The translations under genes and the position numbers were made by a program. The notes below the pieces were generated by a model. The model had not been told where the DNA came from. It ran no database searches and saw only the letters and a list, made by a program, of their open reading frames with translations. A stretch of DNA of 64,000 bases from Dictyostelium discoideum (lineage: Eukaryota), in NCBI GenBank assembly GCA_000004695.1, contig CM000152.2, positions 448,001-512,000 of the forward strand, written 5' to 3'. Positions 4,551-60,715 of the stretch are shown piece by piece (the first letter of the stretch is position 1; each line of letters starts with the position of its first letter).

Positions 4551-4845
4551 CAACGTTTTGTTTGTTGTTACATTTACAACAAATTAATGAGACTGAACCA
4601 GTATATACTTTATCGTATAATAAATTATTTAATGGGTAGTCATCATCAATTGATACATGATGTTGTGATGTAATTAGTTGGAATGAAATATGTTGTTGTT
4701 GTTGTTGTTGTTGATGTTGATTTTGATGTTGATGTTGTTGTTGATGTTGTTGATGTTGTTGTTGGTGTTGTTGTAGTAGTTGTTGGTGTTGTTGTTGTTG
4801 TTGTTGTTGTTGCTGTGGTTGTTGTTGTTGTTGTTGTTGTTGATT

Positions 4846-4912
<67 letters not shown>

Positions 4913-4932
4913 GGTTGTTGTTGTTGTTGTGG

Positions 4933-4972
<40 letters not shown>

Positions 4973-5173
4973 GGTTGTTGTTGTTGTTGTGGTTGTTGTT
5001 GTTGTTGTGGTTGAGGTTGTTGTTGTGGTTGAGGTTGATGTTGTTGATGTGGTTGTTGTGGTTGATGATGGTGTTGTTGTTGTGGTTGCTGTTGATGTTG
5101 ATGTTGTGGTTGTTGCGGTTGTTGTGGTTGTTGCGGTTGTTGTTGTTGTGGATGATGATGATGATGATGATGA

Positions 5174-5227
<54 letters not shown>

Positions 5228-5813
5228 GGTTGTTGTTGTAGTTGTTGTTGTTGGTGTTGATGTTGTTGTTGTTGTTGATGTAGTTGGTGTTGATGTTGTT
5301 GATGTTGAATTTGGATTTGTTGATGTTGTAGTTGTTGATTTTGTTGTTGTTGTAGTTGTTGGTGATGTTGAAGTTGTAGTTGTTGTTGAATTTGGATTTG
5401 TTGTTGTTGTAATTGTTGTTGGATTTGTTGTTGGATTTGTTGGTTTTGGTGAACAGACATATGTGTGAGATGGTTTTGATGTTGTGGTTGATGTTGTTGT
5501 TGGATTTGAGATGGTGGAAATTGTTGGGAAATTGGTTGGTTGTTACCAACTTGTATAGTTTTTTCATTTTTTATTTGATTATCAAATTTAGTTGGAGATA
5601 ATTGTTGTGGACTTGTGTTGTTGTTATTGCTGTTATGATTGTTTGAAAAATTATTTTGAGATGATAAGGTTAAAACAGATGATTGAGAGGATTGTAATTG
5701 TGGAGGTGAATTTAAATGTTGAGTTGACGATGATAATTGGTTTGGAACATGAGGTTGTGATGAACTTAATTCATTATTATTATTTATATTATTATTACCT
5801 ATTATTGTTATTA

Positions 5814-37471: not shown

Positions 37472-40400
37472 ATGAAAATTATTTTACACTTTATTTAGAA
37501 CCAAAAAATAATAAAAGTGATTTAATAATTTATATTGGTGTATTTAGTTATTTACCAACAAATTATTCATTTTGTGTTACTAGAAATGGATTTATGTTTC
37601 CAAATTTACTTTCAGAAATGTCAATACAACAAGGTGCATTCTCATTAGCTTCGACGAGTATATTCTTACCAATTGGTAAGAATATGAATGATAGTGATTA
37701 TTTTTATACATGTAATAGTCAAGCAGAGTGTAACCCATTTTCAATATTATACCCAACAATTGATATTAATCCGCTTTGGCCAGTGCCACCAGTACTTTAT
37801 GGTGTTGAAGATTTTGATTTTAAAAGTGTTTTATATACAAGTGAGGGTTATCATGGATTTGGTATTATAAATTCGAAATTTAAATTAAGATCTTACCAAG
37901 TTGCAATACTATTAAAATATGATAATGGTAAAGGTGATAGAAAGGAGTATATCTCTTATGATGAGGTGTTGCAATCGTCAATTCAATTTCTTTCTACTTT
38001 AACCGACTCTAGAGGAAAGTTAATTGATTTTAAAGTTACAGGATTCCAAGATGTTACAAATATAACTTGTAATCATACTGAATTTAAAAGAGTGTTGGAT
38101 TTAGTGGACCATCAAAGTTCTTTGATTTTAAATAGTCTTGTTTCTCCATCATTGAATGAATTAAATAATTGGAGATATGAATTGGGCGTGTTAATGTTGA
38201 ATGACGCTTGGATTGGGTGCAGTAGTAAGGTAAAGGATATGTTGGATATTAGATTAGTTACAAAGAATATTTCATCCTATTTCTGTCCTTGGCAAGTGGG
38301 TGATATTGAATTCTCAACTGATCCATGTTGCAATTCAACTCATCAATATTATCGTTGTTGTAACCCGAGATATGTTGAAACTCAGGTATACGAATTCCAT
38401 GGTATTATCAATGACGTGGCACAGAATCAATGTAATTCAGACTCACTCGATTGTTCATTATCAGTGCTTGAAGAGTATGGCAATTATCTAACTACTGACG
38501 ACCAACTATGCGGCGATCCTTCCACCACATCCACCGAAATCCAATACTCGCTCTACTACTCCCTAAGAAATTGCAAAGACATCACATTGATACCACCATA
38601 TTGTAAGAATGATTCAGAGTGTACCCAATTCTCACCAAATGGGAGATGTGACCTTTTCACAAGGAAATGCTTCTTGGATTATGAAATATTGGATAGAATG
38701 TATGTTGATTGCATATTTCAAGAATTATCACCTGCAACTCTATTCTCATTTGTTTCATCAACTACTTTTAATAGTACAACAATTGATAATAAATATAAAC
38801 AACATTTCACTGATGATTGTGTTGGTTCAAAAGGTAGTAGTTTTCCAATTCGTACAACTTATGCCTATGCAACCAATGATCCATATGTTGGTATAATACC
38901 AGCTACAAATTGTCTTGACAAATCTTGTAAAACCATTTACAATTCATTATTTGATATTTATTATTCAGGTTGGACTTTTACAAGAGAATGGAGAGTTAAT
39001 GAAAATACTTGTTCAGATTTTGTAACATGTCCACAAATTAATTGTCAATCAACATTAAATCAAAATTTAAATTGTAAATATTTATGTGATCAACAAGATT
39101 CTTTAGATTTTTGTGGTTATTGTAGTAGTAGTAGTAGTGGTAGTATTGATAACACTACCACTACCAATAGTACATGTTTTAACTTTTTAGAATTAAATAA
39201 TTCAATATCATGCGAAAATAGTGATCCAATTTGTATATTATCAAATGGTGATTATTTATATAATCTTAGTAAAGAAGAATGTGAATTATCATCATCAATT
39301 GGTAGTTGTACTCATTCATGTGGATTCGAATGTATTGGTGTTAGTAGACTTTGTATATTTGGTGACTCTAATAAAACAACTTGTGAAAATAATGGTTACC
39401 TTTGGAATGGTGTTGATGGATATTGTGTTGATTTATCATCAACTACTGAAGAGCAATGTTATGGTAATTATAATGCATCTTCTTCTTCCTCATCCTCTTC
39501 TCCCTCTTCTGATAGTCGTCCACTTTGGGTAGATTGTCCAAATAGATCAACAGATCTATGTAGTGATGGTTTCTTTTGTGATCTTAAAGAGGTACCATGT
39601 AAAACTAAAGAACAATGTGAATCAATTGGTGGTGAATGTTCAGATATATTTTTCTTTAAACCAGAGAATGTTCAATATTATCCATTTGGATTTGGTAAAT
39701 GTGTTACAAATCATACATTCCTTCAAAGAGATAATTCAAAGACAGTATCTTGTCCAAATGGTCAAGTTGATTCACCAAATGGTTGTTTCTATCAATCACC
39801 GGTTTATAAAACAAAAGCTCAATGTTTAGATACACCAGGTAATAGATGGTGGACACCTTCAGATAATAGATCACAATGTCTATCGAATGAAAATCAAGGT
39901 TGTAGAATAATGGATGTGGATTCATTTGCAAATTTACCATTTAATTTCAAATTCAATGAAATGGATCAACATCAATGTGAAGGTTGTAGACAACTTTTAC
40001 CAAGTTCCTCCAAATGGACTGATAAATTCAAATGGACAAATGCAACTTGGTTACCTGGTATTCATATTGATAAACCAAAATGGTATAGAAATTTAACTTC
40101 AACCCCTCGTGTATTTAAATCAACATTTAACTATCAAAGTTTTTATCTAGATTTAGTTGATGCAGTTGGAAGACAAACTGCTGATTTCTATAGATCTCAA
40201 ACATTTTGTAAAAAAGAAAAGAATCAAAATAGTTTAAATTCATTAGTTTGTAGTTGTTCAGGTGATGCTGGTGGTGGTATAACAAATAATTGTTTTAATT
40301 CGTCAACTCCATTATTAGGTTTAACAAATCAATGTAATGGTGAATCATCTATATTAGGATTTGCAAATGGGTTTGTAAATTTAACTGATAATTCAGTATT

Positions 40401-41925
40401 ACCAGGTTGCCAAATTATAACCATTTCTTTAGTTTCAAAATCAATATTCACTTCAACAGTACCTGAATCATTGGCATCAAGTTTCGTATCCTATAATAAA
40501 CCTGATAACTATGGTGTAATCAATTCAAATGGTGCAATCATTGGTACACTATTAATGGATGGTATAATGATTAAATCTGAACAAAACATTCAATTGATGG
40601 TGGTATGTTTTGATATTACCAATATTGCACAGAGTGATAAATATCCATCTTTTGATTTCGCCACAAATTACAATAGTACAAGTGCAATGGGTTCCTTATA
40701 TCCAATGACTGTTGAAACTTATTTAGTCAAAGATCCCGATGGTATCACTTATATGTGTTCAAATCTATCAAATGTTCAACCGGAAACCATCATCTTTATG
40801 ATCAATATAATGGGTGGTGATTGGATGGATCAATCAAAAGAATTATTCGATTCAACTACAAAATCACTTTTATATTTCTTGGCTGTCCTATTCTTATTAA
40901 TTGGTTGTTTTGGTTGCTATCAAATAATTTTAATAATTTTCATTGGTTATAGATCGAAAAGTGGTAATAATATTAATAATACTAGTAGTGGTAGTGTTGG
41001 TGGTGGCGGTGGTGGTGGTATCGGTGGTGATCATCAAGTTCAAATAACTCATATTTTAACTGGACTAATAACATTGTTTATTATGTTAAGATCAATTTAT
41101 TTCTTTGTTATGCCAGGTGGCTATCTTTCATCTAGTCCCGTTGCAGATTATATTTTAGTGGTTTTACCAACATTTATTTATTTCTCAGCTTTTATAGTTA
41201 TGATAGTGATTTGGTATATCATTGTATTCATGGTGTTAAAGAATTATTCAATGGCAGGCTCAAGAACTAAAAGACTCTATACTATTGTTTTCGGTGTAAA
41301 TGTAGTGCTATATATACTTTTCATCATTGTAGTACTAGTATTCCAATATACTCATTATTCACCAAACAATTATTGTGGCGCAAGAGTTGTTGTGCAAATG
41401 AAAAATTCCAAACCCCAAATTATAGTCTCCATTCTTTACGCTGTAATTCAAGCTATCCTTTCACTTGTACTAGGTTCATCATTTGCATACCTCGGTTCTT
41501 CTTTATATTTAACTTTAAAAAAGGCTAATTTCTCTTCACTTAAAGCTTCTAGAAGCTCACAAAAATCAATTAGAATTTTCATTTTAACAGTGGTTTGTAG
41601 TATTGGTTTCTTATTACATTGGGTTTTTATATTAATTTTGGTAAGCTCAGAAATCAATTCAATAGCTTTCACTTTTGTTGGTTTATTATTAACTGAAATT
41701 TTACCAGCTGCCTCAATATTGTATTGTTTTCAAACAAGAAATAATCAAAATAATGAAACAACTCTCAATAGTGGTAAAAATTTCCCACTCTCTTCTCTTG
41801 GTTCAACAAAAACTAAAAAATTAAAAACAAAATCACCAAATTTACCAATTATTAATTATAACTCTAATAGTGTACCACCTTCTCCAATTATAGAACCAAC
41901 TAATAATAATAATAATAATAATAAC

Positions 41926-41959
<34 letters not shown>

Positions 41960-42075
41960 GTAATAATATTAATAATGATAATGATAACAATAATAATCAA
42001 CAAAATTCATTATCTATGGGTGTAAATCAAGAAAGAAATAATATTAATTCAAGTAATGAAATAAATAATATTTAA
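37472..42075 (+). CDS. Exon 3 of the same gene (or an independent gene starting at M 37594). It has a ~1100-aa Cys-rich N-glycosylated ectodomain, 7 TM helices and an N-rich cytoplasmic tail.
   Basis: 1493-aa ORF 37594..42075. Its frame stays open and coding-like upstream to the acceptor ATTTAG at 37470-37471. Seven hydrophobic segments lie between about residues 1090 and 1380 of the ORF. Confidence 0.6.
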
Positions 42076-43552: not shown

Positions 43553-43661
43553 GTAAGAATTTCTCCTCAAACTTAAAATTATTTATTATTATTTTCGTTG
43601 TAAATTTACATTTTTTTTCAAAAATTAACATTGTTTTTTATTTTCATTTAAAAAATAAATA

Positions 43662-43793
43662 GGAAATTCTGAAGTTGGTAAATCATGTATAATTGATTCC
43701 AAGATAAATGAATATCTTCCAACTATTGAAAATAGAAGTAAAAAAATGATGCAAATAAATAATAAATTTTTCGACTTTAATATTTTTGATACT
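43662..43793 (+). CDS. Small GTPase, exon 2 (P-loop GNSEVGKS, switch I YLPTIEN, DTA-).
   Basis: Acceptor AAATAG at 43660-43661. GTTTGT donor at 43794. All junctions are in frame. Confidence 0.5.
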
Positions 43794-43885
43794 GGTTTGT
43801 ATTTTTTTTTTTTTTTTAATTTTAAAAAAAATAATAATAAAAGAAATATATTTTATTAACAATTTTATTTTATTTTTTTATATTT

Positions 43886-44319
43886 TTTTTTATATTTTAA
43901 TTTAGCTGGTGCAAAAGAATTAAATTATTTAATTAAAAATTCAATTAAACAATGTGATTTATTTGTTATTGTTTGCTCATTAACTGATGACAAATCCATT
44001 GATAGTATTCAATATTATATAGAATTAATTCAAAATGGGTTAAATAGAAAGCATGATATTCCAATGGTAATTGTTGCAAATAAATTAGACATTTTGGGTG
44101 GTTTAGAAAATCCAATGGTAAAAAATCAAATAAAAAAAATAAATAAAAAATATAAAAACTCTCATTGTATTTTATCTTCGTCGAAAAATAATGAAAATTT
44201 AAATAATATATTAAAATCATTAATTAAACAAGTTAATCAAATTGAAAAAAATAGAAAACAATTATTAAATCATCAATCTTCTCCATTAAGAAATTTAAAA
44301 ATTTTTAAAAATATAAGAC

Positions 44320-46965: not shown

Positions 46966-47139
46966 CATATATATATATATATTATGAATAACATTTATTT
47001 ATTTGAATTTCCCAAATATTTAAGATAATTTTTTAGAATGTTCTAGAACATTCGAAGAATAAAAAAATTTTCGAAAGAAAAGTAAAAATTTCGAACCGGC
47101 ACAATGACTCGATCATTGTGTAAGGTCGAAAAACTGAAA
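46966..47139 (+). repeat. Left terminal inverted repeat of the DIRS-like element.
   Basis: Reverse-complement match to 47850-48022 with a single mismatch (gactcg vs gacgcg). It contains the palindromic core gaatgttctagaacattc. Confidence 0.75.
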
Positions 47140-47607
47140 GGTCTCATTATTACTACTGACTCAATTAAAGGTCCAGTTATTAATGCTAAAGAACAAAGAA
47201 GTGGTGTTGTTTCAATATTAGAATTAACATCGTTAGATGATACAAACTCTCAAGTATGCCCTGTTCGCCACCTTGCAACATACCTTAGAGCCTCTAAAGG
47301 AAAAAGAAAGCCCCATTCGGGTGACTCTGTCTTTATTAAGAATGAGGGTGAACCGCTTCTAGTTAATGATATTAACTCAATTGTACTATCAACACTCTCA
47401 AAGTCAGGTATTGATATTGTCAAGTTCAAATCTCACTCTACCCGTTCCGCTATGGCTTCTTTGCTGTTGTCCAATAACTTTTCGTTCCACGTTGTTAAGA
47501 AGATGGGTCGTTGGAAATCAAATGATACTGTAGATACCTTCTACGATAAAAGAATCATTGGTGAAAAATCTGGTGGTTTCTTAAATACTGTCGTCCAAAT
47601 TTCATAA
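47104..47607 (+). CDS. Tyrosine recombinase-like ORF (catalytic-domain fragment) of the DIRS-like element.
   Basis: 167-aa ORF. CPVRHLATYLRA, HSTRSAMASLLL and GRWKSNDTVDTFY give the R..H-x-x-R..[W]..Y arrangement typical of DIRS/Crypton-type YRs. The ATG lies inside the left TIR. Confidence 0.55.
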   Translation: MTRSLCKVEKLKGLIITTDSIKGPVINAKEQRSGVVSILELTSLDDTNSQVCPVRHLATYLRASKGKRKPHSGDSVFIKNEGEPLLVNDINSIVLSTLSKSGIDIVKFKSHSTRSAMASLLLSNNFSFHVVKKMGRWKSNDTVDTFYDKRIIGEKSGGFLNTVVQIS

Positions 47608-49266: not shown

Positions 49267-49772
49267 AAAAATTGAAAAGAAAAAAAAGTATATATAAAAA
49301 AACAATCTCATCTAATTGTTACAAAAATACTTTTATTACTTGACATTTCAATATAATTTTGCTTAAAATATTAATTTACCCTAATATATTACATGCACTC
49401 GAAAATGTAAAAAAATAAAAAAATTGAACCATATTAATTATAATTACACCCTTTAAAATTTTAAAAAACACAAGCTATAAATACAAGCTGTTGGGTTAAT
49501 AATTATATGTGGGGAGGTGGGTTAATTTTTTTAAATTGGATTCCTAAATTTTAAAATTATAATTTGATCGTGTAAAAAAAAAAAAAAAAAAAAAAAAAGA
49601 AAATAAAATAAAATTGAATAAATAAAAATAAAAAAAAAAAAAAAATTAAATATATATATACACACACATACACACACACTCATATATAAATAATTAATGA
49701 TAAAAAAATCTACACAAAGTATTTTTTTTTATATTTTTATTTATTAAATTTTATTGTTTGATTTTTTTTTTT

Positions 49773-50290: not shown

Positions 50291-50594
50291 ATGAAAGTAT
50301 TACAAGAGATTAATCTTACATATAGTATATTGGTTATTGCCGATTTTTCATCAATATTTGGATGTTTATTAGTTTTAATAGCATTTAAAAAATTAAAACT
50401 TCTTCGTAATCATATTACACGTGTTATTGCATGTTTTTGTGTATCATCATTATTAAAAGATATAATATCAACAGGACTCACTCTTTCATTAGGTCCACAA
50501 AATGAAGCTGGTTCAACATCTTTCCAATGTTATTTATATGCAATAACTATTACATATGGTTCATTAGCTTGTTGGTTATGGACATTATGTTTAG
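50291..50594 (+). CDS. cAMP receptor (cAR) family GPCR, upstream copy, exon 1 (TM1-TM3).
   Basis: [37 protein letters not shown]...[24 protein letters not shown] is the Dictyostelium cAR TM1-3 signature. GTATAT donor at 50595, at the conserved cAR intron position after WLWTLCL. Confidence 0.8.
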
Positions 50595-50689
50595 GTATAT
50601 ATATATTTATATATATTTATATAATTATTTAAAAAAGTTTATATAACTAACTGAAAACTTTAATTTTTATTTTTTATTTTTATATACAG

Positions 50690-51717
50690 CATTCAGTATT
50701 TATAATTTAATTGTTAAAAGAGAACCGGAACCAGAGAAATATGAAAAATTTTATCATGGAGTTTGTTGGACCATACCATTAATTTGTGTAATTGTTATGT
50801 TAGCAAAGAAAACAATTGAACCAGTTGGTAATTGGTGTTGGATTAGTGAGAAATATGTTGGATATAGATTTGGGTTATTTTACGGACCATTCTTTGCAAT
50901 TTGGATAATATCAGCAGTATTGGTTGGTTTAACATCCAGATACACCTATTCAGTGATTAGAAATAGTGTAAGTGATAACAAGGATAAACATATGACCTAC
51001 CAATTCAAATTAATCAATTATATCATTGTTTTCCTCCTATGTTGGGTATTTGCAATTGTTAATAGAATTTTAAATGGACTTGGTTATTACCCAACCCTTC
51101 CAAATATTCTACATACCTATTTCAGTGTATCACATGGCTTCTTTGCTTCGGTCACCTTTATTTATAATAATCCATTAATGTGGAGATATTGGGGTTCAAA
51201 AATATTTTTAATATTTGCAAAGTTTGGTTACTTTGTTGAACTACAAAGAAGATTAGATAGAAATAAAAATAATAATAATCCATCTCCAATTTTAAATTCA
51301 TATGCTGCAACAGTTTATCATTCTTCAACAATTGAATCATTATCATTACAACATAATAATGATATTTCAAATGATAATCAACAACAACAACAACAACAAC
51401 AAACACCCCAACAACCTCAACAACAATTTCAACAACAACAATCACCAACTGTAATTGAAATGCAAAATTTAAAACAGGATCAAAATATTGAAAATAATGA
51501 ACAAAATGAAAATTGTTATAATACAATTGATACAAATATAGAAATTAATACAAATAAATTAAATGATAATTCTTTTGAAATAACGCAACCTTCAAATGAT
51601 TTAAATACTATTGAAAATAATAATAACTATAATAATAATAATAATAACAATAATAATAATTCATTAGTAATAGAAAAGGAAAAAGATGAAAGAGAAAAAA
51701 AAGATAATAAGTTTTGA
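50690..51717 (+). CDS. cAR family GPCR, upstream copy, exon 2 (TM4-TM7 plus N/Q-rich tail).
   Basis: Acceptor TATACAG at 50688-50689 (G+CA=Ala). Contains [23 protein letters not shown]...GNWCWI...[10 protein letters not shown]...LTSRYTY...[13 protein letters not shown]...[26 protein letters not shown]... In frame with ORF 50797..51717. Confidence 0.8.
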
Positions 51718-51807
51718 AAAAAAAAAAAAAAATGTAAAATAAACTATATAATAAAATGTCCGAATAAATAACTTCTTAATTTTTTTAATATTTTTTTTTA
51801 TTTTAAT

Positions 51808-53412
51808 TTATTTATTTTTATTATATAATTTTGGAATTATTGATTTTCTTTTTAATAGTATAATAAATAAAGAAATTATAAAAACTAAAACAGATATATT
51901 TGTTAATGTATAAAAAGCAGACATTGCTGAAGTAATTGGATATTCTTTATCAACTTGATTATTGACTGAATTTGTAAATTTTGTAAAATCCTCTTCTTTT
52001 TGATTTGGATTAATTTCATTTTGTATTGAATTACGATGATTATGATTTTCAATTAATTGATTTATTGATTTTTGATAAAATATTTTTTTTTCAATATATA
52101 TATATCCCTTATTATTCATTAACTTTACAAATGTGTATTCTAGTGTTTCATTATGAATTGGACCAATATAACATGTTAATTCATCAAATAAAATTTTATT
52201 ACTATTATCATTATTATTATCATTATTATTATTTTTATTATTATTATTGTTATTATTATTATTTATTATACCTATGGTATCGTATGATACCTTTTTAAAA
52301 TTAATAATTGATGATGAACATTGTTCATCACCAATTAAAACTATTATATCTAAATTAAAATGTAAACCATAAATTGTAATTACTCCACCATCTCTTGATA
52401 AACCTTTAATTGATTTTATATCTGGTAATTGGTATGAAAATTGTAATTTATTTTCAACAGAATTTATTAATATATTATTTAAATATACTTTTACTGGAAT
52501 TAATTTTCCATCATGTACACCATCTGGTAATGTTGCTTCAATTAAATTTGAATTTAAAATTCTTACATTTGAACAATACTTTTCACCAACTTGTACTGAA
52601 AAATTACCTTTTAAATTGTTACCATTAATTATCAACTTTCCATTCTTTATTAATAATGATGATAATTCTTTATTTAAACTTAATATTTCAATATTATTAT
52701 TGTTATTATTATTATTAATATTAATTAATTTATCATTTTGTTTTTTATTATTATTATTATTATTATTTAAAATTAAATTAATTGGTAATGATTTATTATA
52801 ATTCCAATTAATTACTAAATATAATTGAGTATTGGTTAATAAATTTATTGTTGATTTTGGTATTTTAAAATTAATTTCATTTTCGTTTATTAAAGTATTA
52901 GAATTTAATATTAAAATTTCATCAGTATTATTCCCAGTCCATAATATGAAATTTGTATCGAAATTTAAATAATACCCATTTAATTTTAAAATACCATCAT
53001 TTGTTAAAATTAAATTTGATATTATTGGATATGGATGAACTGATTCAATTAATATAATACCACATTTACTACTACTACCTTGATTATTGATTTGATTTGT
53101 TACTAAACATGCGTCAATTGAATGTGCATTTAATTGATTTTTATATTTACTTGATTCAAAAGTACATTCTCTATAGATATCATTCACTATTTTACAATCA
53201 AAACCAATTGTTATTGTTGGTTTTGAAAATTCAATATCACTATAAAGTGTCCAATTACTATAATAAGCATTATTTATATCTGTTTTTATTTTAATATATT
53301 CTTTATTAATTTGAAATTCTTTTATTATAGGTATATAATCAATTAATTCACATTTTATAATATTAATAAATATAAATATTAAAAAAATTATAAAATATTT
53401 TAAATTATTCAT
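51808..53412 (-). CDS. Secreted/type-I membrane protein with IPT/TIG-like repeats (Tgr-like).
   Basis: 534-aa ORF with signal peptide MNNLKYFIIFLIFIFINIIKC. IPT-type motifs are GKLIINGNNLKGNFSVQVGEKYCSNVRIL and DGGVITIYGLHFNLDIIVLIGDEQCSS. C-terminal TM is ISVLVFIISLFIILL followed by KRK. Confidence 0.5.
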   Translation of the reverse strand: MNNLKYFIIFLIFIFINIIKCELIDYIPIIKEFQINKEYIKIKTDINNAYYSNWTLYSDIEFSKPTITIGFDCKIVNDIYRECTFESSKYKNQLNAHSIDACLVTNQINNQGSSSKCGIILIESVHPYPIISNLILTNDGILKLNGYYLNFDTNFILWTGNNTDEILILNSNTLINENEINFKIPKSTINLLTNTQLYLVINWNYNKSLPINLILNNNNNNNKKQNDKLININNNNNNNNIEILSLNKELSSLLIKNGKLIINGNNLKGNFSVQVGEKYCSNVRILNSNLIEATLPDGVHDGKLIPVKVYLNNILINSVENKLQFSYQLPDIKSIKGLSRDGGVITIYGLHFNLDIIVLIGDEQCSSSIINFKKVSYDTIGIINNNNNNNNNKNNNNDNNNDNSNKILFDELTCYIGPIHNETLEYTFVKLMNNKGYIYIEKKIFYQKSINQLIENHNHRNSIQNEINPNQKEEDFTKFTNSVNNQVDKEYPITSAMSAFYTLTNISVLVFIISLFIILLKRKSIIPKLYNKNK

Positions 53413-53436
53413 TTATTTATTTTTTATTATTTATTT

Positions 53437-53476
<40 letters not shown>

Positions 53477-53480
53477 AAAG

Positions 53481-53517
<37 letters not shown>

Positions 53518-53816
53518 ACTAAAAAAAAAAAAAAATATTGTTTTCAATTTAATTAAAGATAAAAAAAAAAAAAAAAAAAAAATATTCTACTAAAAAAAAA
53601 AAAAAAAATAAAAATAAATATATGTATATATATATATACTCACACAATTGTGTGTGTGTGTGTATGTGTGATTTGTTTCTTTTTTTGGGTTTTTAAATCT
53701 TTTTTTTTTTTTTTTGTAATTTCAAAAAAATATTTTTTTTTTTTTTTTTTTTTTTTATTTTTTTTTAAACAGTTTTAATGCATGATTAAATATTTTTTTT
53801 ATTTTTTTTTTTATTT

Positions 53817-54425
53817 TTAAATTTTTATAAATTTATTAAATAATTTAATTATTTTGTTTTTTTGATTTAAATTTCTTAAAACTTTTTTATATTCTTTACA
53901 ATTTTTAATTATTTGTTTTTCTTTATTTTCAATTGTTTCAATTAATAAATGAAAAATTGAACAAACTGATGATAAATTTTTAGAAGATGTAATTATTGTT
54001 GGTGCATCAAATACTTTTGATAATTCCAAAACTTCATTTTTTGAAATTTGATTTTTCAAATCAGATTTATTTGCAACCAATATTATTGGTGGCATAATAT
54101 TACTTGATTTAAAATTTGATTTTATTAAATCTTTATAAACTTGAATTTTGTCTATTGATTCTCTATCATTTAAAGAATAAACAATTATAAAACATTGTAC
54201 ATTTGAAATCGTATCTGGTACCAAACAATTATATTCCTCTTGACCAGCTGTATCGTTACAACAAATTGTATATAATTTATTTTTGTATGAATATAATTTA
54301 TTACATTTATTTTCTATTGTCGGTATATATGAATCTTCAAAATATGAATTCATAAACATATTAATTATTGATGATTTTCCAGTTTTTGCTGCTCCCAAAA
54401 TTCCACAATTTATAATTTTTCTCAT
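53817..54425 (-). CDS. Divergent Ras-superfamily small GTPase (CAAX-less), paralog of the gene at 43519..44327.
   Basis: 202-aa ORF with G1 GAAKTGKSS, switch I YIPTIEN, G3 DTAGQEEY and G4 ANKSD. Confidence 0.6.
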   Translation of the reverse strand: MRKIINCGILGAAKTGKSSIINMFMNSYFEDSYIPTIENKCNKLYSYKNKLYTICCNDTAGQEEYNCLVPDTISNVQCFIIVYSLNDRESIDKIQVYKDLIKSNFKSSNIMPPIILVANKSDLKNQISKNEVLELSKVFDAPTIITSSKNLSSVCSIFHLLIETIENKEKQIIKNCKEYKKVLRNLNQKNKIIKLFNKFIKI

Positions 54426-54972
54426 TTTTTTTTTTTTTTTATTTTTATTTTTATATTTTTTTTTTTATTATTTTTTATTGGAAATTCCCCAAATTCAAAG
54501 ATTTAAAAATTTTTGAGTTTATTATTTATTTATAAATATTTTTATTTTTTATAATTTTTATTTTTTTTGTATTTTAATAGTTTTTTTAAAATTTTGTTTT
54601 ATTTTTGTGGAAAATAAATAAATAAATAAATAAATAAATGAATAAATAATAAAAAAATAAAATAAAAATGGAAATAAAAAAAAAAAAAAAAAAATATCTT
54701 TAAATTGTTATATGTATTATACAATATATCAAAACTGAAAATGATGATCAAACAAAAACAGTTTATTTTTGTTGTTACCGTCGTTGTTGGTAAAATATCT
54801 ATTTTTGATACTAATACAAAATCATATCACAAAACACACCATATTAAAATACTAACACACACAAACACATACACATTTTATTTTTTTTTTAAATACAACA
54901 AAAACAATTCATATTATTATTATTTTAAATTTAGGTTTAAAAATAACATTAATGAATACAAAATATTTGCCA

Positions 54973-55011
<39 letters not shown>

Positions 55012-56082
55012 TTTAACCACTTTTGGTGTTTTGTTTTTTGTTGCACACAATAATTTTGTAATACAAATTTGTACTTTTTTGGAAAATTTAGTGGTGAATT
55101 TTATTTTTTTTTATATATAAAAAAATTATTTCAATTATTTGAAATAAATAATAATAATAGAACCTCATATAAGAATATTATATAAATAAAAAAAATGTAT
55201 GAAATATAAATAGAAATTATATATATATTTTTTTTTTAATTTTTTCAAATTTTTAAAGTTAAAAATACAAAATACCAAATAAATTTTTCATACCTTTAAT
55301 TATTATTATTATTATTATTATTTTAATTTTATACTATTATTTTTATATTGTTATTGTTATTATTTTTATTTTTTTCTTTATTAGTATTATTATTATTATT
55401 ATTATTATTTTAATTTTTTTCTTTTTTTATTTTTTTTTTTATTTTTTTTTTATTATGATTTTACTTTTGATAAAAACTTAATATAATTTCTTATTATTTT
55501 AATTACTAATATACCTAATTTATTAATAAATTTTTTAATTTTATTTTATTTAATTTTTATTTATTTTTCATTTTCTTAATAAAATTTTATATCTTGATTA
55601 AATTTCTTTTTTTTATTTTTTTTTTTATTTTTTTAACGATAAAAATAATTTTCAATATTTTTTTATTCCCTAAAGTTATTTTTAGTGCTATGTGGTGATA
55701 ATTTCATTATATCCAATTTTATTTTTCTTAAATTTTAAAAAAAAAAAAATAAAAAATAAAAAGAGATATATAAAAAAAGGATTCGTTGTATTATTATTAA
55801 TTACAATTTTATTATCGAATAACAATATTATAACATCATTTTAAATACTTTTTTATATTATTTCATAGACCCCCCCATACAATAATCTATTTTTAAAAAA
55901 CAATTAATATTAATATAATCACGCTATTTTCTAAACACACAATAAACACACCCAAGCACCCACCATTTTTTTTTTATTTTTTAATTTTATTTTTATTTTT
56001 ATTTTTATTTTTTTTTTTTTTTCCAATATTTGATACAGACAAAATGTATATTCATCTAAAAAAAATTTTTTTTTTTTTGTTT

Positions 56083-56119
<37 letters not shown>

Positions 56120-56186
56120 TATTTTTAATTTAATATATTTCAATTACAAAAAAGAACACACACATTCACACAATAAAGAATCAAAT

Positions 56187-56217
<31 letters not shown>

Positions 56218-56441
56218 CAATTTGATAATAATAAAAATTAAAAATATATATTTTATATCTTTTTGTAATTAATAATTATCTATAGTCGAAAAAAAAAATA
56301 AAAAATAAAAAATAAAAATAAAAAAAATTAAAACAAAAAACAAAAAAAAAACAAAAAAACAAATAATAGTAATAATAATAATAATTAAATAATAAATAAA
56401 AAGATCAATTTTTTTTTTTTGAAAATAAAAAAAAAAAAAAA

Positions 56442-56775
56442 ATGGAAAATTTAAATACAACAAGTACGGCAGCATTAACTGGTATGACAAAACAAGAGAA
56501 TGATGCATCATATGCAGTTCTATTGATTGCAGATTTTACATCAATAATTGGTTGTACATTAGTTTTATTAGGTTTTTGGAGATTAAAATTACTTCGTAAT
56601 CATATTACAAAAATAATTACCTTTTTTTGTTCAACATCATTAGCCAAAGATTTAATATCAACAATTTTAACATTGATTGAAAAGAAACAATCAAATGGGT
56701 CATTCCAATGTTACCTTTACGCAACTGTTATCACTTATGGTTCATTGGCATGTTGGCTTTGGACATTATGTTTAT
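56442..56775 (+). CDS. cAR family GPCR, downstream copy, exon 1.
   Basis: [44 protein letters not shown]...[30 protein letters not shown] donor at 56776 (phase 1). Confidence 0.8.
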
Positions 56776-56843
56776 GTAAGTATTTGTTATAGAAATAAAA
56801 ATAATAAAAATAATAAAATAATTTTAAAAATTATGTTTAGAAA

Positions 56844-56881
<38 letters not shown>

Positions 56882-56940
56882 AATTTAATTTTTATTATTA
56901 TTTAATATTAATATTATTATTATTTCTATTACTTTTACAG

Positions 56941-57795
56941 CATTTAGTATTTATAATTTAATTGTAAAGAGAGAACCAGAGCCAGAGAAATTTGAAAAAT
57001 ATTATCATGTTTTTTGTTGGGTTGTACCATTTATAATGTCAGTGATAATGTTGTCAAAGGGTGTTATAGAGGTGACGGGTAATTGGTGTTGGATTGGTAA
57101 CACTTATGTTGGGTATAGATTTGGCTTGTTTTACGGACCATTTCTTGCAATTTGGTTCCTTGCTGCCGTGTTGGTTGGTTTGACTTCGAGGTATACCTAT
57201 AAGGTGATTAGAAGTAGTGTTAGTGATAATAAGGATAGACATATGACCTACCAATTCAAGTTAATCAATTATATAATTGTTTTCCTTTTATGTTGGGTGT
57301 TTGCTGTTATTAATCGTATTGTCAATGGCTTGAATATGTTTCCAGCTTGGGTTAGTATTCTTCACACCTATCTAAGTGTATCGCATGGTTTCTATGCTTC
57401 GGTGACTTTTATCTATAATAATCCATTGATGTGGAGATATTTAGCATCAATAATTTTAATTCCATTCACAAAGTTTGGTTATTTTGTTGAAACTCAACAA
57501 AGATTAGAAAAAAATAAAAATAATAATAATCATTCACCAGTTGGGTTATCAAATAATGCTCAAAATAATAATCATCATCATAATCATAATAATAATCACA
57601 ATAATAATCATAATAATCATAATAACAATAATAATAACAATAATAGTGATTTCGTTAATAATGACTCAAGTAATTATTATACTGCTTCAATGATTGAATC
57701 ATTCTCTGTTCAAAATGAAAATTCAAAATCTATAAATGGTGCTGATAATTTTAAACAAAATGGTGCAAGTCAACAAGATGATAAAGATTCTCCAA

Positions 57796-57878
<83 letters not shown>

Positions 57879-58079
57879 TATAATAATAAAGATATTGAAC
57901 CAATTGACAATTGTAATACTAATTCCATACCAATGGATAATATTGCCACTAGAATTGAAATACCTCCACAACATCCAACATTAACTCCTCAACAATCATT
58001 ACAAGAAATTAATTTAAATGATGACGACAACAAAATTAATACTCACCAAAGTAACAAAAAAAAAGATTCAAATGTTTAA
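56941..58079 (+). CDS. cAR family GPCR, downstream copy, exon 2 (TM4-7 plus N/H-rich tail).
   Basis: Acceptor TTTTACAG at 56939-56940. In frame with ORF 57036..58079. The core is ~85% identical to the upstream copy, and the C-tails diverge. Confidence 0.8.
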
Positions 58080-58381
58080 AAAAAAAAAAAAAATCCAAGA
58101 GTTTGAAAAAAAAAAAAAAAAAAAAGATCCAAGTGTTTAAAAAAAAAAAATAAATAAAAAAAATAAAAAAAATAAAAATAAATTATTTATGTACTTCGAA
58201 TAATATGTATTCTCAAAAAACTTATTTTGATTTTAAAGAACAACGTGAAGAGGATGAAATTTTAAATAAAATAGATTTTGACCAAGAAACAAAATCGGCA
58301 AGGAAATTTTGATTTTCATTAGCCAGCTTGGCCCGATAGTAATTTAAAAATATCAAGCCAAAAAAAATTTGATTTTCATCA

Positions 58382-58464
58382 GCCGGCTTTGGCGCAATGG
58401 TAGCGCGATTGACTGTAGTAATATTAGTGATCAATCGGTTGCTAGTTCGAATCTGGCAAGCCGG
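58382..58464 (+). tRNA. tRNA-Tyr(GUA): tRNA-Tyr (anticodon GUA) with an 11-nt intron (58418..58428).
   Basis: Hand-folded cloverleaf: acceptor CCGGCTT/AAGCCGG, D-stem GCGC/GCGC with loop AATGGTA, anticodon stem ATTGA/TCAAT, loop CT-GTA-G then an intron after position 37, T-stem GCTAG/CTGGC with loop TTCGAAT, discriminator A, followed by TTTT. Confidence 0.85.
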
Positions 58465-58485
58465 ACTTTTCGTAAAAAAAATTAA

Positions 58486-58509: not shown

Positions 58510-60715
58510 ATCCAATTTGATTCTATCTCTCATGATAGTATTAAAAGAACATAAATTCATATTGGTATACCAATTAAATTAATAAATTTAATCCACAAGC
58601 TATTATCTGACTCACAAGCAAAAATTTCAATTAATGGTAAAACGACCAGAAAATTCGATATTAAAAGAGGTGTAAAACAAGGCGACCCAATCTCGGCCAC
58701 TTTATTTGTAATTGTAATTGAAATATTAGCAAGAACAATAAATGCAGACAATTCAATAATTGGATTACCAATTTCACCCAATCCACAAATTAAAATCAAA
58801 TTTACCCAATTTGCAGACGACTCTACAACATACAACATCAACTACGAACAACAACAACAATCAATCAAACATTTCCATAATTTCTGCGCTTCAACATCAT
58901 CATCATTAAATTTTGACAAAAGTGCAATAATAGAAATCAACCCCCACAAAATCACTGATAAACACATAATAAACAACATTCCACAATCAAAAAGAATACC
59001 AATTACCAAAAAAGATCAATCAGAAAGAGTTCTTGGCTATTTCTTTAATCATAATGGTTTACATAGGAAATTACCAGAAACAATGAAAACACTGATCAAA
59101 TCATTAGTACTATGGAAAACTAGTGGCACAACATTAAAAACAAAAACAACCATCATAAACACCTACTCACTATCACCAATAACATATTTATCATACCTTG
59201 AAGAATTTACAAAAGATGAAGAAATTCAAATTAATAAATTAATCTCATGGTTTATGAATTCTCCCGCAAATTCTGAATCACCAACTCTCAATACCAATTC
59301 CATTGAAAACAACACATCAACCATCCATTCACGTGCAAAAATACCTTTGATGTGTTATGATAGATCATTAAAACCATTAAAAGAAGGTGGTTGGGGTATG
59401 TGGAATATACAATTACGACAAGTTGCTCAAAAGATTTGGATATACAACAGATTTTTACAAATGCATAAATCTGCAAACAATTCAATATACATGATAAGTT
59501 GGATGGATCAAATCATCAACAAATCAATCTCTTCTCCATACCTTATAAAAATCAAAAAAGAATGGGAAAACTATGCAACTCAAATTGGACATCTAAAAGA
59601 TAAAGTTCAAACCCTACAACCAATATTAACAAAAAACCAAACCTCTCAAACATTAAACACAAATAATATTTCACTACCACCAACACTCAAAGAAATCTAC
59701 TCGAAAATACTCAACAATCACCAATGCAAATCAAAAGACTATATTGACAAGAAATATTCAGATCTACTTCTTAATTCGCACCAACAATCAATACAACTAT
59801 TATGGAAATACACTTACGACCAACTTTTTGTCAAAATTCAAAAATTAAAAGATCCAAAAGGCCGTGATACAATGCAAAGATTCCATGCTAGATTTCTTCC
59901 AATTAATCATCTACACAACAAAGTTTGCCCCATTTGCAACAATGAAATGAATAATGATCCCTATGGTCATTTGTTTTTCAATTGTCAACACACAATCAAC
60001 TTCATAAACCACGAAAAATTAAAATATTTTATATATAAAAATTGCAATGGAAACAAAAACTGGTCACTAACAAAAAACCAAACAACAAAATTATACACAC
60101 TCATTTATAAACCACAAACAAACAACAAAGCATTTAAACCAGATCCAACTATCAATATAAATTTTCATTTTGCAGAAAACGCACAATATAAAAAATACAG
60201 GTTCAACTGGAATTATATAAACACAAATCTTGATCTAGTCAGAACACATGCATATTGGAACATAATCTCATTAGTTATTCACCAAATATGGATATGGTTA
60301 TGCAAATCATTATTTGACATCAATATAACTCAATCAATTGACAATTGGAACAACCAAATAAACAACACAACACTAGATTATGATATATTAAAATCAAAAT
60401 GGCACAAGCTAATAAGATTGGAATATTCAAGAACATTATCAAACTTTAACCAATACTCAATTAAAAACAACCTCACAAAAACTCAAAAAGAAACCCAATG
60501 GTCCGAAACCATCAAAAAATTTAAAAAAGAATGGAGCATAAACACAAATGAACCAATTCCAACAATTACACCACCAATTAATTATTAATTGCCTAATCTA
60601 AAATAACATACCATTTTAAATTCACAAAAACTAAAAAACCTAAAATAAATAAATAAAAATAACATACTAATTGTATACTACAATAGTTTATTTATATCAA
60701 AAAAAAAAAAAAAAT
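58510..60715 (+). mobile_element. 5'-truncated tRNA-gene-targeted non-LTR retrotransposon (TRE3-like) with an oligo-A tail.
   Basis: It begins ~50 bp downstream of tRNA-Tyr and encodes the RT C-terminal half plus a CCHC knuckle. The A16 tract at ~60699-60714 ends it. The island is GC-richer than its surroundings. Confidence 0.65.
58555..60588 (+). CDS. Partial ORF2 of the retrotransposon (reverse transcriptase motifs from RGVKQGDPISATLF and FADDS onward, then a Cys/His knuckle CPICNNE...HLFFNCQH).
   Basis: Open frame from the stop at 58552-58554 through ORF 59083..60588. There is no N-terminal RT or endonuclease portion, so it is 5' truncated. Confidence 0.65.
   Translation: MHIGIPIKLINLIHKLLSDSQAKISINGKTTRKFDIKRGVKQGDPISATLFVIVIEILARTINADNSIIGLPISPNPQIKIKFTQFADDSTTYNINYEQQQQSIKHFHNFCASTSSSLNFDKSAIIEINPHKITDKHIINNIPQSKRIPITKKDQSERVLGYFFNHNGLHRKLPETMKTLIKSLVLWKTSGTTLKTKTTIINTYSLSPITYLSYLEEFTKDEEIQINKLISWFMNSPANSESPTLNTNSIENNTSTIHSRAKIPLMCYDRSLKPLKEGGWGMWNIQLRQVAQKIWIYNRFLQMHKSANNSIYMISWMDQIINKSISSPYLIKIKKEWENYATQIGHLKDKVQTLQPILTKNQTSQTLNTNNISLPPTLKEIYSKILNNHQCKSKDYIDKKYSDLLLNSHQQSIQLLWKYTYDQLFVKIQKLKDPKGRDTMQRFHARFLPINHLHNKVCPICNNEMNNDPYGHLFFNCQHTINFINHEKLKYFIYKNCNGNKNWSLTKNQTTKLYTLIYKPQTNNKAFKPDPTININFHFAENAQYKKYRFNWNYINTNLDLVRTHAYWNIISLVIHQIWIWLCKSLFDINITQSIDNWNNQINNTTLDYDILKSKWHKLIRLEYSRTLSNFNQYSIKNNLTKTQKETQWSETIKKFKKEWSINTNEPIPTITPPINY

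What the first reader, a model, noticed from the sequence alone, without database searches (positions are those of the whole stretch)
50291..58079. Two tandem, same-strand cAMP-receptor-family GPCR genes separated by an IPT/TIG gene and a Ras-like GTPase gene
Both genes carry the near-invariant cAR core: [40 protein letters not shown], the intron exactly after [48 protein letters not shown] and NNPLMWRY. Their cores are ~85% identical to each other, while the N-termini and N/Q/H-rich tails differ. They are far closer to the cAR1-4 subgroup than I would expect for Crl-type receptors. A tandem arrangement 5.9 kb apart suggests a local duplication whose copies may have diverged in tail-encoded regulation. 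The intervening opposite-strand genes (IPT/TIG adhesion-like protein, GTPase) sit in the middle of the duplication.
Basis: partly seen in the sequence, partly recalled or inferred. Interest (0 to 1): 0.6.

Follow-up and report, generated by a model that had tools for sequence, protein, structure and literature searches.

The report
Known Dictyostelium carD–carC cAMP receptor genes
These are the two well-studied Dictyostelium discoideum cAMP-receptor genes carD (cAR4) and carC (cAR3), intact and lying 4.7 kb apart on chromosome 3 with a TIG-domain gene and a small GTPase gene between them; they are an old gene pair already in the reference annotation, not a new find.

Summary
Two intact, same-strand, two-exon Dicty_CAR genes lie at 50291-51717 and 56442-58079. 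Between them, on the opposite strand, are a TIG/Ig-E-set membrane-protein gene and a Ras-family GTPase gene.

Both receptor genes are already known. Gene 1 is an exact match to CAR4_DICDI (carD, DDB_G0277831, 443 aa). Gene 2 is carC/cAR3 (DDB_G0277829, 490 aa).

Several details in the finding are wrong:
- Core identity is 71.5%, not about 85%, which is no higher than either gene shows to cAR1 or cAR2.
- The quoted N-terminal motif is cAR1's sequence and occurs in neither gene.
- The shared intron site is common to all four car genes.

The duplication is old. Synonymous divergence is high (dS about 0.85), dN/dS is 0.25, and the flanks share no real homology. Each copy has its own ortholog, and the same four-gene layout occurs in D. 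citrinum, D. dimigraforme and D. firmibasis. A neighbour-joining tree groups cAR2, cAR3 and cAR4 with 98% bootstrap support but joins cAR3 to cAR4 with only 50%.

The functional divergence is published: cAR3 has high affinity, is prespore-enriched and activates GSK3 through ZAK1, while cAR4 has low affinity, is prestalk-enriched and inhibits GSK3.

Verdict: already known, low interest. The conserved four-gene block and the conserved G-box-like promoter arrays are minor additions.

The parts
50291..50594 (+). carD (cAR4) exon 1: codons 1-101 plus the first base of codon 102
   Evidence: The spliced model translates to 443 aa, an exact match to CAR4_DICDI / XP_642216.1.
50595..50689 (+). carD intron (95 nt, GT..AG, phase 1, after ...WLWTLCL)
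   Evidence: All four car genes have an intron at the same position and phase.
50690..51717 (+). carD exon 2, from TM3 to the Q/N-rich C-terminal tail and the stop codon
   Evidence: Dicty_CAR covers residues 1-308, E=8.6e-180.
51808..53412 (-). Single-exon gene for a 534-aa predicted type I membrane protein (N-terminal hydrophobic leader, all-beta ectodomain with poly-N inserts, C-terminal TM helix). AX4 annotates it as 'immunoglobulin E-set domain-containing protein' (XP_642217).
   Evidence: Exact match. Pfam TIG is below threshold in this copy but above it in the D. dimigraforme and D. firmibasis orthologs. The AF2 model is low confidence but mostly beta strand, with terminal helices.
53817..54425 (-). 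Single-exon gene for a 202-aa Ras-family small GTPase (XP_642218). G1 GAAKTGKS, G3 DTAGQE and G4 NKSD are all present.
   Evidence: Pfam Ras 9.4e-30. The closest paralog is rsmD-like at 47-49% identity.
55933..55967 (+). CA-rich (G-box-like) array about 490 bp upstream of the carC ATG; putative GBF site array
   Evidence: Found by composition scan. A comparable ACACCC-type array lies at a similar distance upstream of carC in D. dimigraforme, D. firmibasis and D. citrinum. GBF binding is inferred, not tested.
56152..56176 (+). Second CA-rich array about 280 bp upstream of the carC ATG, about 213 bp from the first
   Evidence: Nearly the same sequence is present in D. citrinum. The function is inferred.
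56442..56775 (+). carC (cAR3) exon 1: codons 1-111 plus the first base of codon 112
   Evidence: The same 490-aa product is encoded at the same place in a second D. discoideum assembly. The length matches carC DDB_G0277829.
56776..56940 (+). carC intron (165 nt, GT..AG, phase 1, after ...WLWTLCL)
56941..58079 (+). carC exon 2, from TM3 to the long N/H-rich C-terminal tail and the stop codon
   Evidence: Dicty_CAR covers residues 15-319, E=8.3e-181.
49503..49684 (+). carD upstream region holding a GT box (TATGTGGGGAGGTGGGTTA, -785..-767 from the ATG) and a CA array (-633..-609); putative promoter elements
   Evidence: The GT box is conserved in D. dimigraforme and D. citrinum. The function is inferred.

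Best explanation
The region is the carD-carC locus of Dictyostelium discoideum chromosome 3. It holds two of the organism's four class-E G-protein-coupled receptors for extracellular cAMP.

Shown here:
- Gene 1 is carD/cAR4 and gene 2 is carC/cAR3.
- Both are intact and under purifying selection.
- Both have the two-exon structure common to all car genes.
- They flank a TIG-domain membrane-protein gene and a Ras-family GTPase gene on the other strand.
- This four-gene order is conserved in three sister species.

Inferred:
- The pair descends from an old local (tandem) duplication within the cAR2/3/4 radiation of group-4 dictyostelids.
- The GTPase-TIG pair either was inserted between the copies or was spanned by the duplication, with its second copies later lost.

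How the receptors work (from the literature, not tested here):
- Both bind secreted cAMP.
- cAR3 has high affinity, peaks at aggregation and mound stages, becomes prespore-enriched, and activates GSK3 through the tyrosine kinases ZAK1 and ZAK2.
- cAR4 has low affinity, is expressed late in prestalk cells, and lowers GSK3 activity through a tyrosine-phosphatase route.
- The two neighbours therefore push prespore/prestalk patterning in opposite directions.

Sequence correlates seen here:
- The second half of ECL2 is uncharged in cAR3 (GNTYV), as in cAR1, and charged in cAR4 (SEKYV), as in cAR2 (DNYD).
- The cytoplasmic tails are unrelated apart from a short Ser-rich S-x-IES-[LF]-S-[LV]-Q motif.
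For: Identity of the genes:
- Gene 1 matches CAR4_DICDI / XP_642216.1 exactly. The two intervening proteins match XP_642217 and XP_642218 exactly.
- carC is listed as DDB_G0277829, 490 aa, and carD as DDB_G0277831, 443 aa (supplement of PMC4931340). These lengths match the gene models.
- D. discoideum has exactly four cARs (PMC3188802). Gene 2 is not cAR1, cAR2 or cAR4, and it forms its own 100%-bootstrap orthogroup.
- The same 490-aa product is encoded next to carD in a second D. discoideum assembly.

Family: Dicty_CAR E about 1e-180 for both genes.

Age and selection:
- Core identity is 71.5%.
- pS 0.51, dS 0.85, dN/dS 0.25, with no stretch of low pS.
- The flanks share only A/T-rich low-complexity matches.

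Conserved synteny: carD(+)-TIG(-)-GTPase(-)-carC(+) in D. dimigraforme, D. firmibasis and D. citrinum.

Phylogeny: cAR2+3+4 clade 98% bootstrap; cAR3+cAR4 50%.

Function: (PMC4931340, PMC3135261, PMC11988041, PMC6345914).

ECL2 and tail comparison. ECL2 as the affinity determinant is stated in bioRxiv 10.1101/694810.
Against: - No database record named 'cAR3' was retrieved for gene 2; the exact sequence was not in the protein collection. That assignment rests on length, locus, elimination and orthology.
- The tandem-duplication origin has only weak tree support (50% NJ bootstrap), and cAR2, cAR3 and cAR4 are close to a trichotomy.
- The intervening genes have no paralogs flanking the pair or at the carB locus, so the duplication unit cannot be reconstructed.
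- Published work questions how essential cAR3 is for prespore gene induction (PMC4931340).
Confidence: 0.9

Rival explanations
1. Recent local duplication: the two copies are still nearly identical in the 7TM core and have diverged mainly in their tails.
For: The genes share strand, exon structure and intron phase, and they lie 4.7 kb apart.
Against: - Core identity is 71.5%, equal to the distance from either gene to cAR1 or cAR2.
- dS is about 0.85, and there is no flank homology.
- Each copy has its own ortholog at 82-98% identity in three other species.
- The intron site is shared by all four car genes.
Confidence: 0.02
2. The adjacency is secondary. carC and carD arose by dispersed duplication, for example from carB or carA, and were later brought together by rearrangement, or one copy landed next to the other by chance.
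For: The cAR3+cAR4 sister grouping has only 50% support. Two unrelated genes sit between them, and mobile elements (a DIRS-like fragment and a TRE-like element) flank the block.
Against: - Rough chance proximity of two of four paralogs within 6 kb on the same strand is about 0.002.
- The layout is conserved in four species.
- cAR3 and cAR4 share a tail motif, S-x-IES-[LF]-S-[LV]-Q, that aligns between them.
Confidence: 0.08
3. One copy is a pseudogene, or the genes are Crl-type cAR-like receptors rather than true cARs.
For: None found.
Against: - Both reading frames are open with canonical splice sites.
- dN/dS is 0.25.
- Orthologs are conserved.
- Gene 1 is identical to CAR4_DICDI.
- Both genes fall inside the group-4 cAR clade.
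- Knock-out phenotypes are published for both.
Confidence: 0.01

Closest known systems
D. discoideum carD / cAR4 (UniProt Q9TX43, DDB_G0277831; Louis, Ginsburg & Kimmel 1994)
   Same: Gene 1 encodes exactly this 443-aa protein.
   Different: Nothing; it is the same gene.
D. discoideum carC / cAR3 (UniProt P35352, DDB_G0277829; Johnson et al. 1993)
   Same: - The length is 490 aa.
- It lies next to carD in two D. discoideum assemblies.
- It forms an orthogroup distinct from cAR1, cAR2 and cAR4.
   Different: The named reference sequence itself could not be retrieved for a residue-by-residue check. A wild D. discoideum isolate (P0028, 477 aa) differs in poly-N/H tract lengths and a few substitutions.
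carA / cAR1 and carB / cAR2
   Same: - They belong to the same Dicty_CAR family.
- They have the same phase-1 intron site.
- Core identity to the window genes is 68-70%.
- The juxtamembrane NKNNNNxSP motif is shared.
   Different: - They lie at unlinked loci: carB on a 5.29-Mb contig with different neighbours, and carA on other contigs of up to 8.5 Mb.
- Their tails differ.
- cAR1 orthologs occur across all Dictyostelia, whereas carB, carC and carD are group-4 specific.
Class B / adhesion GPCRs (ADGRD1, glucagon receptor), the nearest solved structures
   Same: A weak 7TM sequence match (E 1e-6 to 1e-4; Pfam 7tm_2 hit).
   Different: No cAR structure is in the PDB. The ligand, the family (class E) and the N-terminal architecture all differ.

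Membership tests
cAR subfamily of class-E GPCRs (Pfam Dicty_CAR PF05462) | Full-length match to the Dicty_CAR profile above the gathering score | tested here: met
   597 and 600 bits against a cut-off of 21, covering profile positions 1-305.
cAR subfamily of class-E GPCRs (Pfam Dicty_CAR PF05462) | Identity with, or orthology to, a named cAR1-4 protein | tested here: met
   Gene 1 matches CAR4_DICDI exactly. Gene 2 has the 490-aa length of carC DDB_G0277829, forms its own 100%-bootstrap orthogroup, and is the only one of the four cARs left unassigned. Caveat: no record named cAR3 was retrieved.
cAR subfamily of class-E GPCRs (Pfam Dicty_CAR PF05462) | Placement inside the cAR clade rather than with the Crl (cAR-like) receptors | tested here: inconclusive
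   Both genes fall inside the group-4 cAR clade (88% bootstrap) and the cAR2/3/4 clade (98%). No Crl sequences were returned by the searches, so a direct comparison was not made. Exact identity to cAR4 makes that comparison unnecessary for gene 1.
cAR subfamily of class-E GPCRs (Pfam Dicty_CAR PF05462) | Conserved gene structure: a single phase-1 intron after the TM3 motif CWLWTL(C/M)L | tested here: met
   The same site and phase occur in carA, carB, carC and carD, and in the orthologs of three other species.
cAR subfamily of class-E GPCRs (Pfam Dicty_CAR PF05462) | Binds extracellular cAMP and signals to G proteins and GSK3 | not testable with these tools
   Literature only: PMC3135261, PMC11988041 and PMC4931340.
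Recent tandem duplicate | Low synonymous divergence and homologous non-coding flanks or introns | tested here: not met
   pS 0.51 and dS 0.85. Only A/T-rich low-complexity matches occur outside the coding sequence.
IPT/TIG (Ig E-set) domain proteins | Match to Pfam TIG (PF01833) above the gathering score | tested here: inconclusive
   The D. discoideum protein reaches only TIG_SUH E=0.019 (15.5 bits against 24). Its orthologs pass: D. dimigraforme 33.6 bits and D. firmibasis 36 bits against 20.9. AX4 annotates it as Ig E-set. The AF2 model is too poor for a fold search (pLDDT 38).
Ras-superfamily small GTPases | Pfam Ras match plus the G1 (GxxxxGKS), G3 (DxxGQ) and G4 (NKxD) motifs | tested here: met
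   Ras E=9.4e-30 over residues 9-166. GAAKTGKS, DTAGQE and NKSD can be read directly in the ORF.

The most novel reading that the evidence does not exclude
The conserved four-gene block carD-TIG-GTPase-carC could be a functional neighbourhood rather than a historical accident. For example, the lineage-restricted TIG membrane protein and the rsm-like GTPase could be co-regulated with, or act downstream of, the two antagonistic cAMP receptors. In that case the origin of the block in the D. discoideum clade would date the invention of the cAR3/cAR4-GSK3 patterning switch.
Probability: 0.08. Interest if true: 0.35.

Novelty: already known. Interest (0 to 1): 0.1.

Why it matters
cAR3 and cAR4 are textbook components of Dictyostelium cell-fate patterning because they regulate GSK3 in opposite directions. 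That the two antagonists are physical neighbours and probably tandem paralogs is a tidy example of duplication followed by sub- or neo-functionalisation. The genes, their sequences, positions, expression and knock-out phenotypes are all already in the annotated reference genome and the literature.

The only increments from this work are:
- The four-gene order is conserved in D. citrinum, D. dimigraforme and D. firmibasis.
- The duplication is old; it is near saturation at synonymous sites and shows no sign of gene conversion.
- The G-box-like arrays upstream of carC are conserved across those species.

Tried and rejected
1. Exact look-up of the 490-aa product. It was not in the protein collection, so the name cAR3 had to be established indirectly.

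2. Adjacent locus tags in D. dimigraforme (005771 and 005772) suggested there were no intervening genes. This was wrong: the tags are not positional, and the locus itself shows both intervening genes.

3. I looked for paralogs of the TIG and GTPase genes next to carB, or flanking the pair, to define a larger duplication unit. None were found.

4. The D. purpureum rsmD GTPase sits next to a faint-TIG gene, which hinted at an ancestral GTPase-TIG unit. tblastn found no similarity between that gene and the window's TIG protein, so the idea was dropped.

5. The AF2 single-sequence model of the TIG protein had pLDDT 38. It was unusable, and no fold search was run.

6. Literature searches for an explicit statement that carC and carD are tandemly linked found none in the held library. 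Alvarez-Curto 2005 is not held.

7. Synteny at the corresponding D. purpureum locus could not be examined, because the protein searches were exhausted and the collection appears to lack some D. purpureum proteins.

8. A gene-conversion scan in sliding pS windows found nothing.


Full report
**What is there.** The window is very AT-rich (GC 12-33%) with Dictyostelium-type triplet repeats. From the sequence I built two + strand gene models.
- Gene 1: ATG at 50291, exon 1 to 50594, a 95-nt GT..AG intron, exon 2 from 50690 to 51717. The product is 443 aa.
- Gene 2: ATG at 56442, exon 1 to 56775, a 165-nt GT..AG intron, exon 2 from 56941 to 58079. The product is 490 aa.

Both reading frames are open. 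Both proteins match Pfam Dicty_CAR end to end (597 and 600 bits, E about 1e-180) and match 7tm_2 more weakly. No further cAR-like sequence lies in the window.

Two single-exon genes lie between them on the - strand.
- 51808-53412 encodes a 534-aa protein.
- 53817-54425 encodes a 202-aa protein with Pfam Ras at 9.4e-30 and intact G1, G3 and G4 motifs.

**Identity.** An exact-sequence look-up shows that gene 1 is CAR4_DICDI (Q9TX43, XP_642216.1, 'CAR4 = cell-surface G protein-linked cAMP receptor'). The two intervening products are XP_642217 ('immunoglobulin E-set domain-containing protein') and XP_642218 ('small GTPase') of D. discoideum AX4, on a 6.36-Mb contig.

The 490-aa product was not in the collection as an exact string. 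Several lines of evidence nonetheless identify gene 2 as carC/cAR3.
- Its best relatives are unnamed proteins from D. citrinum, D. dimigraforme and D. firmibasis and from a wild D. discoideum isolate (82-87% over the full length; the differences are mostly in poly-N/H tracts).
- The named cAR1, cAR2 and cAR4 are clearly different proteins.
- D. discoideum has exactly four cARs (PMC3188802).
- The supplement of PMC4931340 lists carC as DDB_G0277829, 490 aa, and carD as DDB_G0277831, 443 aa. These are the lengths of my models, and the locus numbers are neighbouring.
- In a second D. discoideum assembly, the gene 4.7 kb downstream of carD translates to exactly my 490-aa protein.

- The string [21 protein letters not shown] is found in cAR1 only, not in either window gene. 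NWCWIG is in cAR3 only. The other quoted motifs are in both genes.
- Core identity is 71.5% over 284 aligned columns, not about 85%. cAR4 is 70.4% identical to cAR2 and 68.3% to cAR1; cAR3 is 69.0% and 68.7% identical to them. The pair is therefore not noticeably closer than any other pair of cARs.
- The intron 'exactly after WLWTLCL' is real and is phase 1 in both genes. carA and carB have an intron at the same site and phase, as do the orthologs in three other species. It is a family feature, not evidence for a pair-specific duplication.
- The IPT/TIG label for the 534-aa protein is only sub-threshold in the D. discoideum copy (TIG_SUH E=0.019). Its D. dimigraforme and D. firmibasis orthologs pass the Pfam TIG gathering score, so the label stands.
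- A single-sequence AF2 model of that protein was too poor to use (pLDDT 38). It shows an N-terminal helix, a mainly beta-strand body and C-terminal helices, which fits a type I membrane protein.

**Age and origin of the pair.** Over 289 aligned core codons, nucleotide identity is 74.6%, pS is 0.51, dS (JC) is 0.85 and dN/dS is 0.25. No sliding window has low pS, so there is no sign of recent gene conversion. Outside the coding sequence only A/T-rich low-complexity matches are found.

A bootstrapped NJ tree of 28 dictyostelid cARs gives these results:
- 100% support for each of the cAR1, cAR2, cAR3 and cAR4 orthogroups across D. discoideum, D. citrinum, D. dimigraforme and D. firmibasis;
- 98% support for a cAR2+3+4 clade;
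- 88% support for the group-4 clade;
- only 50% support for cAR3+cAR4 as sisters.

The order carD(+) - TIG(-) - GTPase(-) - carC(+) is present in all three sister species.

The literature places carB, carC and carD as group-4 innovations (PMC4931340). It reports that carC and carD orthologs were not detected in the D. purpureum draft genome, although D. mucoroides and D. rosarium have all four receptors (PMC3188802).

A rough calculation gives about 0.002 for two of four paralogs lying within 6 kb by chance. An old tandem duplication is therefore the most economical origin, but the tree does not prove it.

The intervening genes have no paralogs flanking the pair or next to carB. The GTPase's nearest relatives are rsmD-like proteins at 47-49% identity, located elsewhere in the genome. 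It cannot be decided whether the two genes were inserted between the receptor genes or were there before the duplication.

**How it works.** The following is from the literature and was not tested here.
- All four cARs bind secreted cAMP.
- cAR1 and cAR3 have high affinity; cAR2 and cAR4 have low affinity.
- cAR3 peaks at aggregation and is later prespore-enriched. It is required for cAMP activation of ZAK1, which tyrosine-phosphorylates and activates GSK3.
- cAR4 is prestalk-enriched, and GSK3 is hyperactive and hyper-tyrosine-phosphorylated in car4-null cells.
- The null phenotypes are opposite (PMC3135261; PMC11988041; PMC4931340). PMC4931340 also notes published doubts about how essential CarC is.

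In the sequences, the second half of extracellular loop 2 is the region reported to set affinity. It reads VSFTG in cAR1, GNTYV in cAR3, DNYDG in cAR2 and SEKYV in cAR4. The high-affinity receptors are uncharged there and the low-affinity ones are charged. This is a correlation, not a test.

The tails share the juxtamembrane NKNNNNxSP motif with all cARs. cAR3 and cAR4 also share a short Ser-rich motif ([10 protein letters not shown] in cAR4, [11 protein letters not shown] in cAR3). Otherwise the tails are unrelated low-complexity sequence.

No cAR structure has been solved. The nearest PDB sequences are adhesion GPCR D1 and the glucagon receptor, at E 1e-6 to 1e-4.

**Regulatory DNA.** In the otherwise A/T-only intergenic DNA there are CA-rich, G-box-like arrays at 55933-55967 and 56152-56176. 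They lie about 490 and about 280 bp upstream of the carC ATG, about 213 bp apart. ACACCC-type arrays at similar distances are present upstream of carC in the three sister species.

From memory, and not verified with the tools, Gollop & Kimmel (1997) mapped two GBF-site arrays at about -165 and +50 of the CAR3 transcription start. That spacing would fit.

carD has a conserved GT box (TATGTGGGGAGGTGGGTTA) and a CA array 610-785 bp upstream of its ATG.

**Verdict.** However, these are the known genes carD and carC in their annotated positions. The similarity was overstated, one quoted motif came from cAR1, and the proposed 'divergence in tail-encoded regulation' has long been superseded by detailed functional work. 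Novelty: already known. Interest: low.

Noticed in passing
window 58383-58466 (+), and 58306-58342 vs 58365-58402: A tRNA gene lies 300 bp downstream of carC, and the anticodon calls conflict. ARAGORN's default gives Thr(TGT); with introns allowed it gives Asn(GTT) with an 11-nt intron at a non-canonical site. Placing the intron at the canonical 37/38 site gives Tyr(GTA), and the gene has C1-G72 and A73, the eukaryotic tRNA-Tyr identity set (own knowledge). A degenerate copy of about 38 bp, covering its 5' flank and first ~20 nt, lies just upstream.
   Followed up: partly
window ~58560-60588 (+): A 5'-truncated non-LTR retrotransposon starts about 100 bp downstream of the tRNA. It has RT motifs (GVKQGDP...FADD) followed by a 501-aa ORF. 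The other D. discoideum assembly annotates an RVT_1 gene of 693 aa here. The position fits a tRNA-targeted TRE3-type element (own knowledge).
   Followed up: partly
window 47104-47607 (+); L009 3144-6859: The window holds a fragment of a DIRS-like element: a tyrosine-recombinase ORF with Pfam Phage_integrase at 3.7e-9. Assembly GCA_054883475.1 carries about 3.7 kb more of the element at this spot (a 1275-aa RVT_1/RNaseH/integrase ORF) with inverted terminal matches. This is either a structural polymorphism or an assembly difference about 3 kb upstream of carD.
   Followed up: partly
window 53817-54425 (-); L001 7201-7911, L002 7863-8550, L003 7586-8246: The small GTPase gene has no intron in D. 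discoideum. Its orthologs in D. citrinum, D. firmibasis and D. dimigraforme have an intron near codon 77 (55-102 nt). This suggests intron loss in D. discoideum.
   Followed up: no
L001 3445-5178 vs window 50595-50689: The carD intron is 441 nt in D. dimigraforme against 95 nt in D. discoideum. The carC intron ranges from 81 to 167 nt among the four species.
   Followed up: no
window 43659-44249 (+): A second, distantly related (28% identity) Ras/Arf-type small GTPase gene lies about 6 kb upstream of carD.
   Followed up: no
window 37594-42075 (+): A 1493-aa ORF encodes a cysteine-rich extracellular region followed by a multi-pass membrane region and a poly-N tail. It has no Pfam match at E<=0.01.
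   Followed up: no
window 53646-53677: A GT-rich element with a CACACAATTGTGTG palindrome at its edge lies about 235-265 bp upstream of the TIG gene's ATG, between the TIG and GTPase genes. It may be a promoter element.
   Followed up: no
window 4691-5433: A 743-bp (TTG)n tract, which is (CAA)n on the - strand, would encode a very long poly-Q run if it is coding. Several other AAT and ACA triplet arrays occur elsewhere in the window.
   Followed up: no
L005 8001-11107 (D. purpureum GL871506.1): The D. purpureum rsmD GTPase gene is followed on the same strand by a gene with a faint TIG hit, echoing the GTPase-TIG order in the window. tblastn found no similarity to the window's TIG protein.
   Followed up: yes
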